This document shows positions 1,651 to 21,521 of a DNA stretch of 42,602 nt, one piece after another (the stretch's first letter is position 1; each line of letters opens with the position of its first letter). The position numbers were made by a program, and so were the translations under genes. The notes beneath the pieces were generated by a model. The model was not told where the DNA came from, made no database searches, and worked only from the letters and a program-made list of their open reading frames with translations. Source of the DNA: a virus; UHGV virus genome UHGV-0263785; one strand, 5' to 3'.

Positions 1651-2070
1651 TTAAAACGCGGTTGGGTGAATTCCATATTCACCGTTTGATCCATACCCTA
1701 TGCGATACATCAAAGTACGATCTGTTGTCACCTTGCCCGCTTGTTCGCTCATGCCACCACCACATACTCCTTTTGGCCACGCGCTGAAGACATGATCACC
1801 AATCGTTGGGTATACAACGACTTTCTGAGCTGTACCTAAATCTGCCACCTCTTTACCATCAACATAAACACGGGAAAAACACGCGCTTCCAAAGAAACCC
1901 GAGTCACGCTTGATGATCACCTCTCCCGTACCGTCTCGTTTTTCGAGTAACGCGGTACTGATAATTTGTTTTTCAGGAACAGGAGTGGCTTGTTCATTTG
2001 AGACAGGTTTTGTAGCACAACCGACAAGAGCAAGCATAATCCCACAGGCAAGACCATTTTTAACGACCAT
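1651..2070 (-). CDS. Secreted lipoprotein (cargo/moron gene at the prophage end)
   Basis: 139 aa; N-terminal signal peptide with lipobox (MLALVGC|ATKP); sits between the att core and the tail genes; ATG start. Confidence 0.6.
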   Translation of the reverse strand: MVVKNGLACGIMLALVGCATKPVSNEQATPVPEKQIISTALLEKRDGTGEVIIKRDSGFFGSACFSRVYVDGKEVADLGTAQKVVVYPTIGDHVFSAWPKGVCGGGMSEQAGKVTTDRTLMYRIGYGSNGEYGIHPTAF

Positions 2071-2234
2071 GTTTGAAAACTCCCAATATTAAAAATATGT
2101 CAGCATCTAACGATAACAACGTTCAGCACCAGAGACTCTTCGTTCTCCGGCTTACGCCTAAAAATATCGCAGGTGCCGTTTGCAGTCGACATCTGTTAAT
2201 ACTAAATTCATACCGCCACCGGCTCGCCGAGCCC

Positions 2235-2507
2235 ATTTACTCCAGAGACAGCCGAACCGAAAAACCGTTTTCAGCGAGCGTCAGACTCAGTGTGTTGATA
2301 GTCCAGTCCCGGTCCTCCTCGGTCCCGAAACCTTGAGTTGTGACTTTGCATTCTGCTGTCAGCGACACTAAATCGAGCGTCGCTGGCGTCGTGTACGTCA
2401 TAGAGAACTCTTTTTTAGCTGCACCGCCCTTGAGCCCTGGTGCAGCTTCTTTCGCTGCGTCGAGCGACGGCTCAACTGCCGGCCATTCAATGACAGGATC
2501 GCCGCCA
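2235..2507 (-). pseudogene. Out-of-frame continuation of the gpD-like gene (about 90 further codons open in a shifted frame)
   Basis: My hand translation of the minus strand just past the stop at 2508-2510 gives an open frame to about 2235 (..SGGDPVIEWPAVEPSLDAAKEAAPGLKGGAAKKEFSMTYTTPATLDLVSLTAECKVTTQGFGTEEDRDWTINTLSLTLAENGFSVRLSLE*). Confidence 0.4.
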
Positions 2508-18876: not shown

Positions 18877-19106
18877 AATCGAACTCCCACGGGCCGACGG
18901 CGTCCCGTACTCAGACCGAGCTGTGATTTCAGCTCGATAATGTACGTTCGGAGCTGCTCAATACTCGCCTGCGAGTATTGATAGCTCCGGTTATTTCCTG
19001 CTGAATCGCCGTGAGACAGCGACACGGTCGATTTACCCGTTAATAATTTGTGCAGAGCGATTTCCGCTTCCAGCAGTCGTTCTGTTAAAACCTCGCGCGA
19101 CGTCAT
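18873..19106 (-). CDS. Head-tail joining protein (lambda gpW-like)
   Basis: 77 aa between terminase large subunit and portal; ..LHKLLTGK....YIIELKSQ.. resembles lambda W. Confidence 0.7.
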   Translation of the reverse strand: MTSREVLTERLLEAEIALHKLLTGKSTVSLSHGDSAGNNRSYQYSQASIEQLRTYIIELKSQLGLSTGRRRPVGVRL

Positions 19107-21067
19107 TAGCTCCCTCCGAGCATTCTGGCCATCTCCTCGAGAGACAGTTTGTTTTGTGATTTTTTCCGTTGCTCAGCGAGCGTCTCGAGATTGAGCTGGA
19201 AACGAATTTTACTGATACGCAGCGCTGCCAGTCCGTACACCCAGCAGTCGAGCGCCTCATTTCGCCGGCCCTGGTTGTCCCAACGATAAACGACGCGACC
19301 GTTAATGAGTTTCGGGATCAGAACCTCGGAGACGAGCTGTTTTGCCTCTGTCGTGCTGAATATTTCGTCGTCGTTGGGAAAATGAATCGCACCTGGTGTC
19401 GCCGATTTGGAGTCGGGTTCCAGCTGCAGGCGCATTGCGAGCAGGTCTTTCGCTGTATCTGTCCCAATCAACGACAAATACACTTTATTCGCGTTACGGG
19501 TACGAGGCATATTTACGACCGGCTGGCCGTATGAGCTCGCGCCCTTGATTGGAATGACCCACAGCGGACCGAGTTTCAGCGAGCGGTTATAAACGACCTG
19601 CGCATCTATACCACCGGTATCCCACGCCCAGCGACTGACGCCGATTGTGGTCCCGTCGCTGCGCCGGTATTGTTTGCGAATCACTCCGTCGACGCGCTGC
19701 AGCGTGTCCTCCTCGTCGTAGCGACCGAGGACGATTGTTTTATCAATCAGCCAGCACTCCTCCTCGGCTCCCCAGCCCCACACATAACACTCGTAGCGCC
19801 CGGACGTCTGAGAGTCGATGCCGCCGGTTATATAAACAACACCGTCAGGAACCTGGCTGGCGTATTTTTCCCGGCGATTAACCAGAATATCGTGCTCCAG
19901 CTGCTCGCTGGCCACGTCGCTCCAGAGTTCGCCGAGCGTCGTGTTATGAAACGTCTTTTCCTTGAGCGGGTCGCCTTTCGCTTTCAGCCACTCGCTGACA
20001 ATCTCGCCCCATCCATCGAGGTTTAGTGAATACAGGGCGTTTATCACGATCGCAGCGTGTTTCGGCGCGCGAACGACGCCACCGTCATGATCAAAAAAAT
20101 GAATGCCGTCTCGGGTCCAGGTGCAGTCCTCGGCTATCCAGCGCCCCCCGAACTCCATTTTTTCGAGATCGCGATAGTAAAAATGTTCCGGGCAGTGGCA
20201 GCACTGGTAATACGCGGACGACGATTTCGCCTCATTGGTCTGCAGGCTGTTATCCCATTTGAGGCCGTATTCGATACCGTCGAAACCAAATACCAGGACC
20301 TGCTCCTCGCCACAATGCGGACATGTCAGGTAAAAACGAAACGTCAGATCGGCAGCGTCTTCGAGCATTTCGATATGACTTTTGCCGGTAACGGTCGGCG
20401 TCGAACCAAAAATCGCCTTCGGGTACGCTGCCCCTTTAATTCGAACGAGCGCCAGTTCGATGGGCGAGCCCTCGCCTTTGCCTTTTTTGGCAACTTCCAG
20501 CGGCCAGCCGTCAACTTCGTCACCCTCGACAACCTGTTTCGTTAGTCGCCGGAAATTTCCTGGTGCACTCGCGCCGCGAAAATCAAGAATCGCGCCGCTC
20601 ATTTCTTTACGCTGGAGATTGTTACGCTCGTTGCTTTTATCCCAGTCGGGGAAAATTTTCTGAATCACTGGCATTTCGGCGATAGCGGGGTCAACCTCGT
20701 CGGCGACAAATCCATCCGATTCGTCATCGATAGGCTGATAGACCACGGCACTACGTTTTTTGTGCTCAGCGAAATAGAGCAGCGCCGCGACGAGTATTTT
20801 TGTATAACCGAGACGAGCTGATTTGCGAACAGACACGATTTTTATCGCGTCGTTCGTCATCATATTGAGCATCACTACCTGGACCGGCTGAGTCGTCCAG
20901 TGCCCAGCGATGTGGCTGGAGCCCTCAGGGAGATAAAAATATTTATCAGCCCACTCAACACCCGTCATCGGTATCGTCACGCGCAAGGGATTCAACCCTG
21001 TCGAGATCGCGTTCGATATCGCTGACATCGTAATCGCTGAAGTCGATTCGTATGTCTGACAACTCAT
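19106..21067 (-). CDS. Terminase large subunit (lambda gpA family)
   Basis: 653 aa; blocks VEWADKYFYLP, CPHCGEEQ, NTTLGE, GIDSQ, RYECYVWGWG, WLIDKTI, WDTGGID, IPIKGAS, RNEALDCWVYGLAALRIS match lambda A as I recall it. Confidence 0.9.
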   Translation of the reverse strand: MSCQTYESTSAITMSAISNAISTGLNPLRVTIPMTGVEWADKYFYLPEGSSHIAGHWTTQPVQVVMLNMMTNDAIKIVSVRKSARLGYTKILVAALLYFAEHKKRSAVVYQPIDDESDGFVADEVDPAIAEMPVIQKIFPDWDKSNERNNLQRKEMSGAILDFRGASAPGNFRRLTKQVVEGDEVDGWPLEVAKKGKGEGSPIELALVRIKGAAYPKAIFGSTPTVTGKSHIEMLEDAADLTFRFYLTCPHCGEEQVLVFGFDGIEYGLKWDNSLQTNEAKSSSAYYQCCHCPEHFYYRDLEKMEFGGRWIAEDCTWTRDGIHFFDHDGGVVRAPKHAAIVINALYSLNLDGWGEIVSEWLKAKGDPLKEKTFHNTTLGELWSDVASEQLEHDILVNRREKYASQVPDGVVYITGGIDSQTSGRYECYVWGWGAEEECWLIDKTIVLGRYDEEDTLQRVDGVIRKQYRRSDGTTIGVSRWAWDTGGIDAQVVYNRSLKLGPLWVIPIKGASSYGQPVVNMPRTRNANKVYLSLIGTDTAKDLLAMRLQLEPDSKSATPGAIHFPNDDEIFSTTEAKQLVSEVLIPKLINGRVVYRWDNQGRRNEALDCWVYGLAALRISKIRFQLNLETLAEQRKKSQNKLSLEEMARMLGGS

Positions 21068-21521
21068 TTAAGGCTATCGCCAGCTCCTCTCGTAATACAC
21101 TGCTCGCCTCTTGCGGCATCTCCGGCCAGACCTTTTTCAGGCGTGGTGGCCACGACTCGACGCGGGTACGTAATTCAACGGCGACGCGAGATACAGCGAC
21201 GCTAATTAATTCAATTGGCGCGTAGCGTTTAGCGAGAATGCGGCGTTTTACTCGTGCCATCAGGATTCGCTCCTGTCGTTCCTCATTTTTCAGCCACTGC
21301 TCGCGATTTTTTTCGGGAGAATTGTCCCCCGCTTCCGGTTCGTCATTACTAGTTGTGTCGCGTCTATTGCTCCGGAGATAACGAATATAAAAATGGCGCC
21401 ATGCGTCTAGCTCCCAATCACCACGTCCTTGTGGGACTGGTGCTCCCGGAAGTTTTGCGAGATCGCGCAGACGACGATCAGATAGCAGTAAATGTGCTGC
21501 AACCTCAGCCTGACTTGCCAT
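20955..21521 (-). CDS. Putative terminase small subunit
   Basis: 188-aa ORF immediately upstream of and overlapping the terminase large subunit gene; ATG start. Confidence 0.55.
   Translation of the reverse strand: MASQAEVAAHLLLSDRRLRDLAKLPGAPVPQGRGDWELDAWRHFYIRYLRSNRRDTTSNDEPEAGDNSPEKNREQWLKNEERQERILMARVKRRILAKRYAPIELISVAVSRVAVELRTRVESWPPRLKKVWPEMPQEASSVLREELAIALNELSDIRIDFSDYDVSDIERDLDRVESLARDDTDDGC

What the first reader, a model, noticed from the sequence alone, without database searches (positions are those of the whole stretch)
1651..21521. Chimeric virion: lambda-type head and packaging joined to a P2/R-pyocin-type contractile tail
Terminase, W, portal, C, D, E, FI and FII-like genes follow the lambda order with near-identical motif blocks. 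Immediately after them the order switches to the P2-like baseplate and tail series V-W-J-I-H-chaperone-sheath-tube-E-tape measure-U-X-D. The join sits in two uncharacterised genes (12507-13720), which are the likely adaptors between a siphovirus-type connector and a myovirus-type tail.
Basis: partly seen in the sequence, partly recalled or inferred. Interest (0 to 1): 0.4.

Follow-up and report, generated by a model that had tools for sequence, protein, structure and literature searches.

The report
Lambda-head, P2-tail mosaic E. coli prophage
This is the excised form of a common E. coli prophage that combines lambda-type head genes with P2/R-pyocin-type contractile-tail genes, a mix already known from other phages, and this copy has a broken portal gene and a broken tail-hub gene.

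Summary
On the minus strand, a lambda-type packaging and head series (small terminase, A, W, portal B, C, D, E, FI, FII) is followed by a P2/R-pyocin-type tail series (V-W-J-I-H-chaperone-sheath-tube-E-tape measure-U-X-D).

It is not new. The window is 100% identical to a prophage at the leuZ tRNA-Leu gene, apart from one rearrangement. About 440 of 5426 complete E. coli genomes carry that prophage, and it is deposited as phage records (ON470624 and others). The same architecture is published for Wolbachia WO, Xylella XfP1/XfP2 and VHML-type phages.

The two genes at the join belong to known families. The 226-aa protein is a gpZ/Neck1-type neck protein. The 178-aa protein is a homolog of the R2-pyocin collar PA0615, a tail terminator. 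Per-gene GC puts the seam before both genes, between FII and the 226-aa gene.

The middle third of the portal gene is inverted, which no public sequence shows. Tail gene D carries a 1-nt frameshift that 84% of copies share. As written, this copy should not make virions. The window is a circular permutation containing attP.

Interest is low.

The parts
20955..21521 (-). Small terminase subunit
   Evidence: phrog_57 'terminase small subunit', E = 3e-39. No Pfam hit.
19106..21067 (-). Large terminase, lambda gpA type. Public annotation starts the gene at 20968.
   Evidence: Pfam GpA_ATPase 3e-46 and GpA_nuclease 6e-64. 43% identical to lambda A.
18873..19106 (-). gpW head-tail adaptor
   Evidence: Pfam gpW 6e-16. 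35% identical to lambda W.
17312..18876 (-). Lambda-family portal gene (gpB type), disrupted in this window
   Evidence: Pfam PF05136 positions 2-101 at 18427-18876(-) and 237-354 at 17315-18070(-). The intact 524-aa reference protein is 64% identical to lambda B.
18069..18508 (+). Inverted middle third of the portal gene, 440 nt. Includes a 21-nt inverted duplication, and 31 nt are lost at the other junction.
   Evidence: PF05136 positions 102-249 lie on the plus strand. This stretch is the exact reverse complement of ON470624 17535-17974. The junction is absent from 442 E. coli genomes and from two contig collections.
16005..17312 (-). gpC-type S49 head protease/scaffold
   Evidence: Pfam Peptidase_S49 2e-37. 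56% identical to lambda C.
15676..16005 (-). gpD-type head decoration protein
   Evidence: Pfam HDPD 4e-7, 30.7 bits against a 29.1-bit cut-off. 40% identical to lambda D.
14583..15617 (-). gpE-type major capsid protein
   Evidence: Pfam Phage_cap_E 1.5e-59. 56% identical to lambda E. PDB 7vi9, a 341-aa major capsid protein, E = 1e-127.
14129..14548 (-). FI DNA-packaging protein
   Evidence: Pfam Packaging_FI 1e-8.
13752..14132 (-). FII head-closure (Hc1) protein. This is the last gene of the high-GC head module.
   Evidence: Pfam Phage_attach 3e-11. phrog_82 'head closure Hc1' 1e-25. GC 54%.
13040..13720 (-). gpZ/Neck1-family neck (tail completion) protein, 226 aa. This is the first gene of the lower-GC tail module.
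   Evidence: phrog_27, E = 4e-43. Three of 25 family members hit Pfam Minor_tail_Z, best E = 2e-12. 31% identical to yong2 gene 7286-7945. GC 48%. The AF2 model (pLDDT 81) has no PDB fold match.
12507..13043 (-). Tail collar/terminator, 178 aa, homolog of R2-pyocin PA0615
   Evidence: Family profile against PDB: 6u5f_A 'Collar PA0615', E = 1e-3, nearly full length with shared end motifs. Foldseek top hits are the pyocin R2 collar (5e-6), Mu terminator, diffocin collar, T4 gp15 and lambda gpU. phrog_1072.
11624..12541 (-). Baseplate spike, gpV type
   Evidence: Pfam Phage_base_V 3e-12. 35% identical to P2 V.
11280..11669 (-). Baseplate wedge, gpW/gp25 type
   Evidence: Pfam GPW_gp25 2e-16. 36% identical to P2 W.
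10363..11283 (-). Baseplate protein, gpJ type
   Evidence: Pfam Baseplate_J 2e-20. PDB PA0618, E = 8e-60.
9734..10360 (-). Baseplate/tail protein, gpI type
   Evidence: Pfam Tail_P2_I 3e-37.
8557..9741 (-). Tail fibre. The N-terminus is gpH-like and the C-terminus is unrelated to P2 H.
   Evidence: Pfam Phage_tail_fib 5e-30 on residues 4-139. 32% identical to the P2 H N-terminus only.
8168..8557 (-). Probable tail fibre assembly chaperone
   Evidence: phrog_1795, E = 2e-23. 44% identical over 55 aa to the yong2 fibre assembly protein. Assigned partly by position.
6669..8171 (-). Tail sheath, 500 aa, with an extra ~115-aa insertion relative to P2 FI
   Evidence: Pfam sheath domains. phrog_23, E = 4e-105. 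PDB PA0622, E = 6e-49. 36% identical to P2 FI.
6139..6651 (-). Tail tube
   Evidence: Pfam Phage_tube 1.5e-21.
5721..6126 (-). Tail assembly chaperone gpE (5845-6126), with a possible -1 frame E' extension running to about 5721
   Evidence: Pfam Phage_TAC_7 2e-15. The -1 frame is open across the E stop codon into the next gene. No canonical slippery heptamer was found.
4096..5736 (-). Probable tape measure protein, 546 aa
   Evidence: Position between the E chaperone and U. 34% identical to the yong2 protein in the same slot. phrog_3654, unknown function. No Pfam, NCBIfam or PDB hit.
3671..4099 (-). gpU-type tail protein
   Evidence: Pfam Phage_P2_GpU 3e-31.
3285..3509 (-). gpX-type tail protein
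   Evidence: Pfam Phage_tail_X 2e-15.
2237..3281 (-). gpD-type baseplate hub gene, split by a 1-nt insertion at 2513. N-terminal part 2508-3281, C-terminal part 2237-2497.
   Evidence: tblastn with yong2 D hits two frames. There is an extra T compared with the intact 347-aa gene of strain AR_0089. The intact protein hits pyocin R2 chain 6u5h_C at 2e-22. The frameshift is present in 364 of 433 genomes.
1306..1430 (.). 125-bp att core of attP, including the 3' part of tRNA-Leu (leuZ). It shows the window is the circular excised form.
   Evidence: Window 1-1430 matches the integrase side and window 1306-1750 matches the yecA side of the integrated prophage. Window position 42602 is followed by position 1 in the chromosome.

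Best explanation
Positions 1651-21521 are the late (virion) operon of a temperate, Q-antiterminator-controlled mosaic phage of E. coli. The phage integrates at the leuZ tRNA-Leu gene.

Inferred assembly pathway (from homology, not shown):
1. A lambda-type terminase (small subunit plus gpA) packages DNA into a lambda-type head. The head is built from the portal, the S49 protease/scaffold, the gpE shell and the gpD decoration protein, with FI assisting.
2. gpW and FII close the portal vertex.
3. A P2/R-pyocin-type contractile tail is built separately. The baseplate uses V, W, J, I, U, X and the D hub. The fibre needs H and its chaperone.
4. Tube and sheath then polymerise around a tape measure, helped by E/E'.
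5. A PA0615-like collar/terminator hexamer caps the tail, with a gpZ/Neck1-like protein also taking part.
6. The capped tail docks onto FII.

No special adaptor is needed. The collar is the tail's own terminator and has the terminator fold shared by long-tailed phages.

The two modules have different origins. The head is about 55% GC and closest to lambda. The tail is about 46% GC and closest to yong2/Chris1-type phages. They meet in the 31-nt gap between FII and the 226-aa gene.

In this copy the portal gene is broken by a private 440-nt inversion. Gene D is broken by a frameshift shared with most copies. This copy can therefore excise, since attP is present, but should not produce infectious particles.
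For: Module identities: Pfam and PHROGs hits, identity to lambda and P2 proteins, and PDB hits to the lambda-size capsid protein, PA0622, PA0618 and the pyocin R2 chain 6u5h_C.

Collar. gpZ/Neck1.

Gene spacing matches the R2-pyocin locus tags exactly. The collar (PA0615) lies three genes before J (PA0618), and the sheath (PA0622) lies four genes after J (against the ORF order).

The same layout is found in isolated phages: VP58.5, yong2 and Chris1.

The literature describes lambda/P2 chimeras: PMC3235987 for WO and Xylella, PMC10612066 for VHML, and PMC2771037.

Other support: GC step, one late operon downstream of Q and the lysis genes, attP and integration site, and the two defects.
Against: - No particles have been seen. 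Every function is inferred from homology.
- The collar's sequence-level PDB hit is borderline (E = 1e-3), and its AF2 model is poor (pLDDT 54).
- The gpZ link is indirect. The window protein itself misses Pfam Minor_tail_Z, and hhalign against lambda Z gives nothing.
- The tape measure has no family hit.
- The portal inversion could be an assembly artefact, in which case only gene D would be defective.
- A two-piece D protein might retain some function.
Confidence: 0.88

Rival explanations
1. The two genes at 12507-13720 are novel, chimera-specific adaptor proteins. They evolved to bridge a siphovirus-type connector and a myovirus-type tail.
For: Neither gene has a Pfam or NCBIfam hit. Both sit exactly between FII and V. 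The 226-aa model has no match among solved structures.
Against: The 178-aa protein is a homolog of the collar of R2 pyocin, a head-less machine, and shares the general tail-terminator fold. The 226-aa protein belongs to phrog_27 and links to lambda gpZ through family members. Both have homologs in yong2 and Chris1, whose heads are of a different type (a protease-capsid fusion), so they follow the tail and not the head-tail combination. Their GC content matches the tail module.
Confidence: 0.06
2. The region holds two separate elements lying side by side: a lambdoid head/packaging remnant and an R-type tailocin cluster. It does not encode a single virion.
For: There is a GC step of about 8 points between the modules. 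The tail genes are closest to R2 pyocin among solved structures. In most copies gene D is broken, so selection for a complete virion may have lapsed.
Against: All genes are on one strand with overlapping or abutting start and stop codons from the terminase through D. A single att pair and integrase bracket the whole 42.6 kb. The same continuous head-neck-tail order occurs in isolated phages. FII and gpW, which serve only to attach a tail, are retained.
Confidence: 0.04
3. The portal inversion is a programmed invertible DNA switch, flanked by 21-bp inverted repeats, that turns virion production on and off.
For: In the window, the inverted 440-nt block ends in perfect 21-nt inverted repeats at 18048-18068 and 18488-18508.
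Against: The reference has only one copy of the 21-mer, so the repeat was created by the rearrangement itself. In addition, 31 nt of coding sequence are lost, so flipping back cannot restore the gene. None of 442 E. coli genomes, nor the viral or genome contig collections, holds the junction. No invertase gene was seen in the window.
Confidence: 0.01

Closest known systems
Deposited E. coli prophage records: Escherichia phage vB_EcoM-705R4 (ON470624) and siblings, and the yecA-leuZ prophage of about 440 complete E. coli genomes (for example strain 4/4, CP023826)
   Same: The window is 100% identical over all 42.6 kb apart from the portal rearrangement. Genes, order and integration site are the same.
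   Different: The window is the circular, excised permutation. It carries a private inversion in the portal gene.
Vhmlvirus / HAP1-like temperate myoviruses (VHML, VP58.5, vB_VpaM_MAR, VP882, PhiHAP-1)
   Same: The late-region order is the same gene for gene: terminase, W-type adaptor, lambda-family portal, protease, decoration, major head, FII-slot gene, Neck1 protein and one more gene, then V-W-J-I-fibre, sheath-tube-E-T-U-X-D. Homology to P2 is restricted to the tail operons (PMC2771037).
   Different: Protein identity is only 24-52%. According to PMC2771037 those phages lack integrase genes, and PhiHAP-1 is a linear plasmid prophage with a protelomerase and ParA that have homologs in VHML and VP882. 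This phage has a tyrosine integrase and a tRNA-Leu att site and lies in the chromosome. Its head is much closer to lambda itself.
Wolbachia WO phages and Xylella XfP1/XfP2
   Same: They are described in the literature as lambda/P2 chimeras, with lambda-like terminase, portal and capsid genes and P2-like baseplate and tail genes (PMC3235987). The WO sheath is 38-40% identical.
   Different: Hosts and accessory modules differ. WO tail and baseplate genes are dispersed among other genes.
Hafnia phage yong2 and Citrobacter phage Chris1
   Same: They are the closest relatives of the tail module and of both neck genes among isolated phages (28-48% identity). They have lambda-type A, W and portal genes.
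   Different: They carry a Clp-protease/capsid fusion gene instead of separate C, D and E genes. Tail gene order differs (V, sheath ... D, then W-J-I-H). No FI is annotated.
R2-type pyocin of Pseudomonas aeruginosa (PA0615-PA0628)
   Same: Gene order from collar through D is the same. It provides the closest solved structures for the collar, J, sheath and D.
   Different: The pyocin has no head, portal or terminase. This element has a full lambda-type head module plus gpW, FII and a gpZ-like neck protein.
Phage lambda (head) and phage P2 (tail)
   Same: The head genes follow the lambda order Nu1-slot, A, W, B, C, D, E, FI, FII, Z-like at 32-64% identity. The tail genes match P2 V, W, J, I, H, FI, FII, E, U, X and D at 26-41% identity.
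   Different: There is no lambda tail (U, V, G, T, H ... J). There is no P2 capsid (Q, P, O, N, M, L). No sequence relative of P2 R or S was detected. X lies between U and D, as in the pyocin, and not in the head operon as in P2.

Membership tests
Lambda-type head and packaging module | gpA-type large terminase with ATPase and nuclease domains | tested here: met
   PF05876 3e-46 and PF20454 6e-64.
Lambda-type head and packaging module | Lambda-family portal (PF05136) encoded as an intact gene | tested here: not met
   The family match is clear, but the gene is in three pieces with the middle third inverted. It is intact in public copies.
Lambda-type head and packaging module | gpW, S49 protease C, gpD decoration, gpE capsid, FI and FII in lambda order | tested here: met
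   All six Pfam families hit above their cut-offs, in lambda order.
P2/R-pyocin-type contractile tail module | Baseplate set V, W(gp25), J, I plus an H-type fibre N-terminus | tested here: met
   Pfam hits. J matches PA0618 at 8e-60.
P2/R-pyocin-type contractile tail module | Sheath, tube, E chaperone, U and X | tested here: met
   Pfam hits. The sheath matches PA0622 at 6e-49.
P2/R-pyocin-type contractile tail module | Intact gpD-type hub gene | tested here: not met
   There is a 1-nt insertion at 2513. The gene is intact in 69 of 433 genomes.
P2/R-pyocin-type contractile tail module | Tape measure protein recognisable by family | tested here: inconclusive
   Only position and a yong2 homolog support it. 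There is no Pfam, NCBIfam or PDB hit.
P2/R-pyocin-type contractile tail module | Collar/terminator of the PA0615 type directly upstream of V | tested here: met
   The profile hits 6u5f_A (E = 1e-3) and that chain is also the top Foldseek hit (5e-6). The gene abuts V.
Peduoviridae (P2-like phages) | P2-type capsid, portal and terminase (N, O, Q, P, M, L) | tested here: not met
   No window structural protein matches P2 Q, P, O, N, M or L by blastp. The head genes hit lambda families instead.
Peduoviridae (P2-like phages) | P2 gpR and gpS tail completion proteins | tested here: not met
   The two neck proteins have no Pfam hit. hhalign against P2 R and S gives nothing.
Lambdavirus / lambdoid siphoviruses | Non-contractile lambda tail (U, V, G/T, H, M, L, K, I, J) | tested here: not met
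   Only a gpZ-like gene follows FII. All remaining genes are of contractile-tail families.
Lambdavirus / lambdoid siphoviruses | Q-antiterminator late control | tested here: met
   PF06323 3e-38 at 23644-24315, upstream of the lysis and late genes on the same strand.
Vhmlvirus / HAP1-like phages | Late-region gene order (lambda-type head, Neck1 pair, P2-type tail) | tested here: met
   Same order as VP58.5.
Vhmlvirus / HAP1-like phages | No integrase; plasmid-type prophage maintenance genes (protelomerase and ParA, with a linear plasmid prophage shown for PhiHAP-1) | tested here: not met
   PMC2771037 reports these features for the group. This phage has a tyrosine integrase and an attP in tRNA-Leu, and it lies in the chromosome in more than 400 genomes. 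No dedicated search for a protelomerase was run on every ORF.
R-type tailocin (pyocin) | Absence of head, portal and terminase genes | tested here: not met
   A complete head and packaging module lies directly upstream in the same operon.

The most novel reading that the evidence does not exclude
The gpZ/Neck1-like 226-aa protein may be the specific, portable element that lets a pyocin-type collar dock onto a lambda FII connector. Its confident model (pLDDT 81) has no counterpart among solved structures, and it always travels with this tail type. If so, this phage family would be a tractable system for finding out where gpZ-type proteins sit in the neck and what they do. To my knowledge, which I did not check in the literature here, that is still unresolved even for lambda.
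Probability: 0.12. Interest if true: 0.35.

Novelty: already known. Interest (0 to 1): 0.12.

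Why it matters
It matters little as a discovery. Lambda-head/P2-tail mosaics have been described since the Wolbachia WO work, and this exact sequence is already public.

It has some practical value:
- It gives functional names to two 'hypothetical' genes of a prophage carried by about 8% of complete E. coli genomes. One is a collar/terminator and the other a gpZ/Neck1-type neck protein.
- It places the recombination seam between FII and the 226-aa gene.
- It shows that 84% of copies carry a frameshifted tail-hub gene. That bears on whether this widespread prophage can still spread as a virus.

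Tried and rejected
Dead ends:
- hhalign of the two neck-protein family profiles against single sequences of lambda gpZ and gpU and P2 gpR and gpS gave no signal.
- Foldseek of the 226-aa model against the PDB gave nothing below E = 0.7.
- BFVD gave only unnamed hits or weak 'minor tail' hits.
- NCBIfam gave nothing for the neck proteins, tape measure, chaperone, FII or small terminase.
- phmmer of the tape measure against the PDB gave nothing.
- Literature searches for the exact phrases 'lambda-like head' plus 'P2-like tail', for Hafnia phage yong2, for the vB_EcoM record, and for ST131 plus leuZ plus prophage found no description of this prophage.
- The inversion junction and the attP junction were not found in viral or genome contig collections.
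- No canonical slippery heptamer was found for an E/E' frameshift.
- The first AF2 model of the 178-aa protein was poor (pLDDT 54). A deeper alignment (A4) was built but not folded, because the second and last structure job went to the 226-aa protein.
- The first base-by-base comparison used a single offset and was uninformative.

Readings considered and rejected:
- An invertible switch in the portal gene.
- Two side-by-side elements.
- Membership in Peduoviridae, Lambdavirus, Vhmlvirus or the tailocins.
Reasons are given under the rival explanations and the membership tests.

Full report
**What is in the sequence**

All genes of the finding lie on the minus strand, so the series reads from 21521 down to 1651.

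The head and packaging half:
- The large terminase has both lambda gpA domains.
- It is followed by gpW, a lambda-family portal, an S49 protease (gpC type), a gpD-type decoration protein, a gpE-type capsid protein, FI and FII.
- The small terminase is phrog_57.

The tail half:
- It carries V, W/gp25, J, I, an H-type fibre N-terminus, sheath, tube, the E chaperone, U, X and a gpD-type hub.

The closest solved structures agree with both halves. The capsid protein matches a 341-residue major capsid protein (7vi9, 8k39) at 1e-127. The sheath matches R2-pyocin PA0622 at 6e-49. J matches PA0618 at 8e-60. The repaired D matches a pyocin R2 chain at 2e-22.

Identity is 32-64% to lambda proteins and 26-41% to P2 proteins, so 'near-identical motif blocks' is an overstatement. 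The tape measure is assigned only by position and by a homolog in the same slot of phage yong2. The ORF at 1651-2070 is a lipoprotein moron, not a tail gene.

**The two genes at the join**

The 226-aa protein (13040-13720):
- It falls in phrog_27, 'tail completion or Neck1 protein', at 4e-43.
- Three of 25 homologs reach Pfam's Minor_tail_Z (lambda gpZ) model, best E = 2e-12, although the window protein itself does not.
- Its AlphaFold model is confident (pLDDT 81) but has no counterpart among solved structures.
- In the viral predicted-structure library it matches three unnamed proteins, and then weakly 'minor tail' and 'HK97-gp10' proteins.

The 178-aa protein (12507-13043):
- It is phrog_1072, with no assigned function.
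- Its family profile hits the R2-pyocin 'Collar PA0615' over nearly full length. The E-value is borderline (1e-3), but the distinctive motifs YPEIP..TPA.F.E and G.APD.G..HE.DY are shared at the two ends.
- Its model is poor (pLDDT 54). Even so, the best fold matches are the pyocin collar (5e-6), the Mu terminator, the diffocin collar, T4 gp15, lambda gpU and T5 p142, all of them tail terminators.
- The gene spacing fits the pyocin locus tags. The collar lies three genes before J (PA0615 against PA0618), and the sheath lies four genes after J (PA0622).

So one gene is the tail's own terminator and the other is a gpZ-type neck protein. Neither is an orphan or a chimera-specific adaptor. No sequence link to P2 gpR or gpS or to lambda gpU was found.

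**Where the seam is**

Every gene from the small terminase to FII is 52-57% GC (mean 54.7%). From the 226-aa gene onward the values are 40-51% (the neck pair is 48.4%, the tail 46.4%).

Both neck genes have homologs at 28-31% identity in Hafnia phage yong2, next to the same tail type. FII has no BLAST match there.

The recombination seam is therefore the 31-nt gap between FII (ending at 13752) and the 226-aa gene (starting at 13720). It is not inside the two genes.

**What the element is**

- The region is 100% identical to the GenBank phage records ON470624, ON470604, ON470596 and ON470627.
- At least 80% of it is present in 442 of 5426 complete E. coli genomes, nearly all at 99% identity or more.
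- In strain 4/4 the prophage lies between yecA and the leuZ tRNA-Leu gene.
- Window position 42602 is followed directly by window position 1 in that chromosome. Positions 1306-1430 are a 125-bp core shared by both prophage ends. The window is therefore the circular, excised form containing attP.
[quoted passage not shown] It has a Q antiterminator, holins and an endolysin upstream of the late genes on the same strand, an ImmA/IrrE-type peptidase, a DnaB-type helicase and a tyrosine integrase.

(1) The portal gene.
- Window positions up to 18068 and from 18509 onward are colinear with the reference.
- Window 18069-18508 is the exact reverse complement of reference positions 17535-17974.
- 21 nt are duplicated in inverted orientation at one junction, and 31 nt are lost at the other.
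- Pfam sees the portal profile as positions 2-101 on the minus strand, 102-249 on the plus strand and 237-354 on the minus strand.
- No E. coli genome in the collection and no viral or genome contig holds the junction.
- Everything else in the 42.6 kb is identical to strain 4/4.
- This is either a private mutation or a local assembly artefact. I cannot tell which without the reads.
- It is not a switch. The 21-nt inverted repeat was created by the event, and coding sequence was lost.

(2) Tail gene D.
- An extra T at 2513 splits the 347-aa hub gene into a 257-aa part and a part of about 90 aa.
- The same insertion is present in 364 of 433 genomes. The other 69 lack it, and the two of those listed carry a full-length D annotation.

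As written, this copy should excise but should not make infectious particles. An intact version exists in the population.

**Comparison with what is known**

Lambda/P2 chimeras are an established kind.
- Wolbachia WO phages have been described that way since Masui et al., as have Xylella XfP1 and XfP2 (PMC3235987).
- VHML is noted for a P2-type tail module in an otherwise lambda/N15-like genome (PMC10612066).
- Lavigne et al. state that homology of VHML, VP882 and PhiHAP-1 to P2 is largely restricted to the V and F tail operons (PMC2771037).
- The isolated Vhmlvirus VP58.5 has the same late-gene order gene for gene, including a 'Neck1' gene and one further gene before V.
- The nearest sheath relatives are yong2, Chris1, Valp1, then VP58.5/MAR/VHML and WO, then P2.

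This phage is not a member of the following groups:
- Peduoviridae, because it has no P2 capsid, terminase, or R and S genes.
- Lambdavirus, because it has no lambda tail.
- Vhmlvirus, because identity is only 24-52% and it has an integrase and a chromosomal tRNA att site, whereas that group is reported to lack integrases and to carry protelomerase and ParA genes.
- The tailocins, because it has a full head module.

What sets it apart within the known kind is modest. Its head module is much closer to lambda itself than in the other chimeras, and its tail gene order is exactly that of the R pyocin.

**Verdict**

But the architecture is already described, the sequence itself is already public, and the 'adaptor' genes belong to known neck-protein families that travel with the tail.

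The only unusual features are the private portal inversion, which may be an artefact, and the widespread D frameshift.

Interest is low. The most novel reading left open is that the structurally uncharacterised gpZ-like protein is the key docking element between this tail type and FII-type connectors.

Noticed in passing
window 18069-18508 (junctions at 18068/18069 and 18508/18509): The middle third of the portal gene is inverted. There is a 21-nt inverted duplication at one junction and a 31-nt loss at the other. No public sequence searched shows this. It is either a real private mutation or an assembly artefact.
   Followed up: yes
window 2513 (gene D, 2237-3281): A single extra T frameshifts the gpD-type baseplate hub gene. 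The same insertion is present in 364 of 433 E. coli genomes that carry the site. The other 69 lack the extra base, and the two of those that were listed have D annotated as full length.
   Followed up: yes
window 1-1750 and 42602 (att core 1306-1430): The window is a circular permutation of the whole 42.6-kb prophage, that is, the excised form. It has a 125-bp attP core that includes the 3' part of leuZ tRNA-Leu. ARAGORN finds no complete tRNA, as expected.
   Followed up: yes
window 13720-13752: There is a sharp per-gene GC step, about 55% in the head genes against about 46-48% in the neck and tail genes. It marks the recombination seam between FII and the 226-aa gene.
   Followed up: yes
L003 4760-5457 (NZ_CP135697, strain TUM2367), equivalent to window ~3285-3509: Some E. 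coli genomes carry an IS1 insertion in tail gene X of this prophage. This is a further, independent sign of decay.
   Followed up: partly
window 28149-28226 and 31572-31649: A 78-nt imperfect direct repeat (about 90% identity) brackets a low-GC island (34-36% GC). The island contains a 232-aa ORF with no family hit and an LprI-family lysozyme-inhibitor gene, and an ORF6N-domain gene lies just beyond its right-hand repeat. It may be an inserted moron or accessory cassette.
   Followed up: no
window 6669-8171, residues ~44-157 of the sheath: The sheath is 500 aa, against 396 aa in P2 FI and 386 aa in PA0622. It carries an insertion of about 115 aa that yong2 and Chris1 share. This is probably an extra surface domain.
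   Followed up: partly
window 5721-5880: The -1 frame is open from about 12 codons before the E chaperone's stop codon into the start of the tape measure gene. This is what an E/E' frameshift product would need, but no canonical X XXY YYZ slippery site is present.
   Followed up: partly
window 1651-2070: A 139-aa lipoprotein with a lipobox signal (phrog_890) is encoded at the prophage end beyond the tail genes. It is a probable lysogenic-conversion moron. It lies inside the finding's coordinates but is not a virion gene.
   Followed up: partly
window 4096-5736: The putative tape measure is only 546 aa, against 815 aa in P2. If tail length scales with tape measure length, the tail would be about two thirds as long as the P2 tail. 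This is an inference only.
   Followed up: no
window 39424-41640: A 738-aa early-region protein has no Pfam hit. It sits just upstream of a 'siphovirus Gp157 family' gene, and its function is unknown.
   Followed up: no
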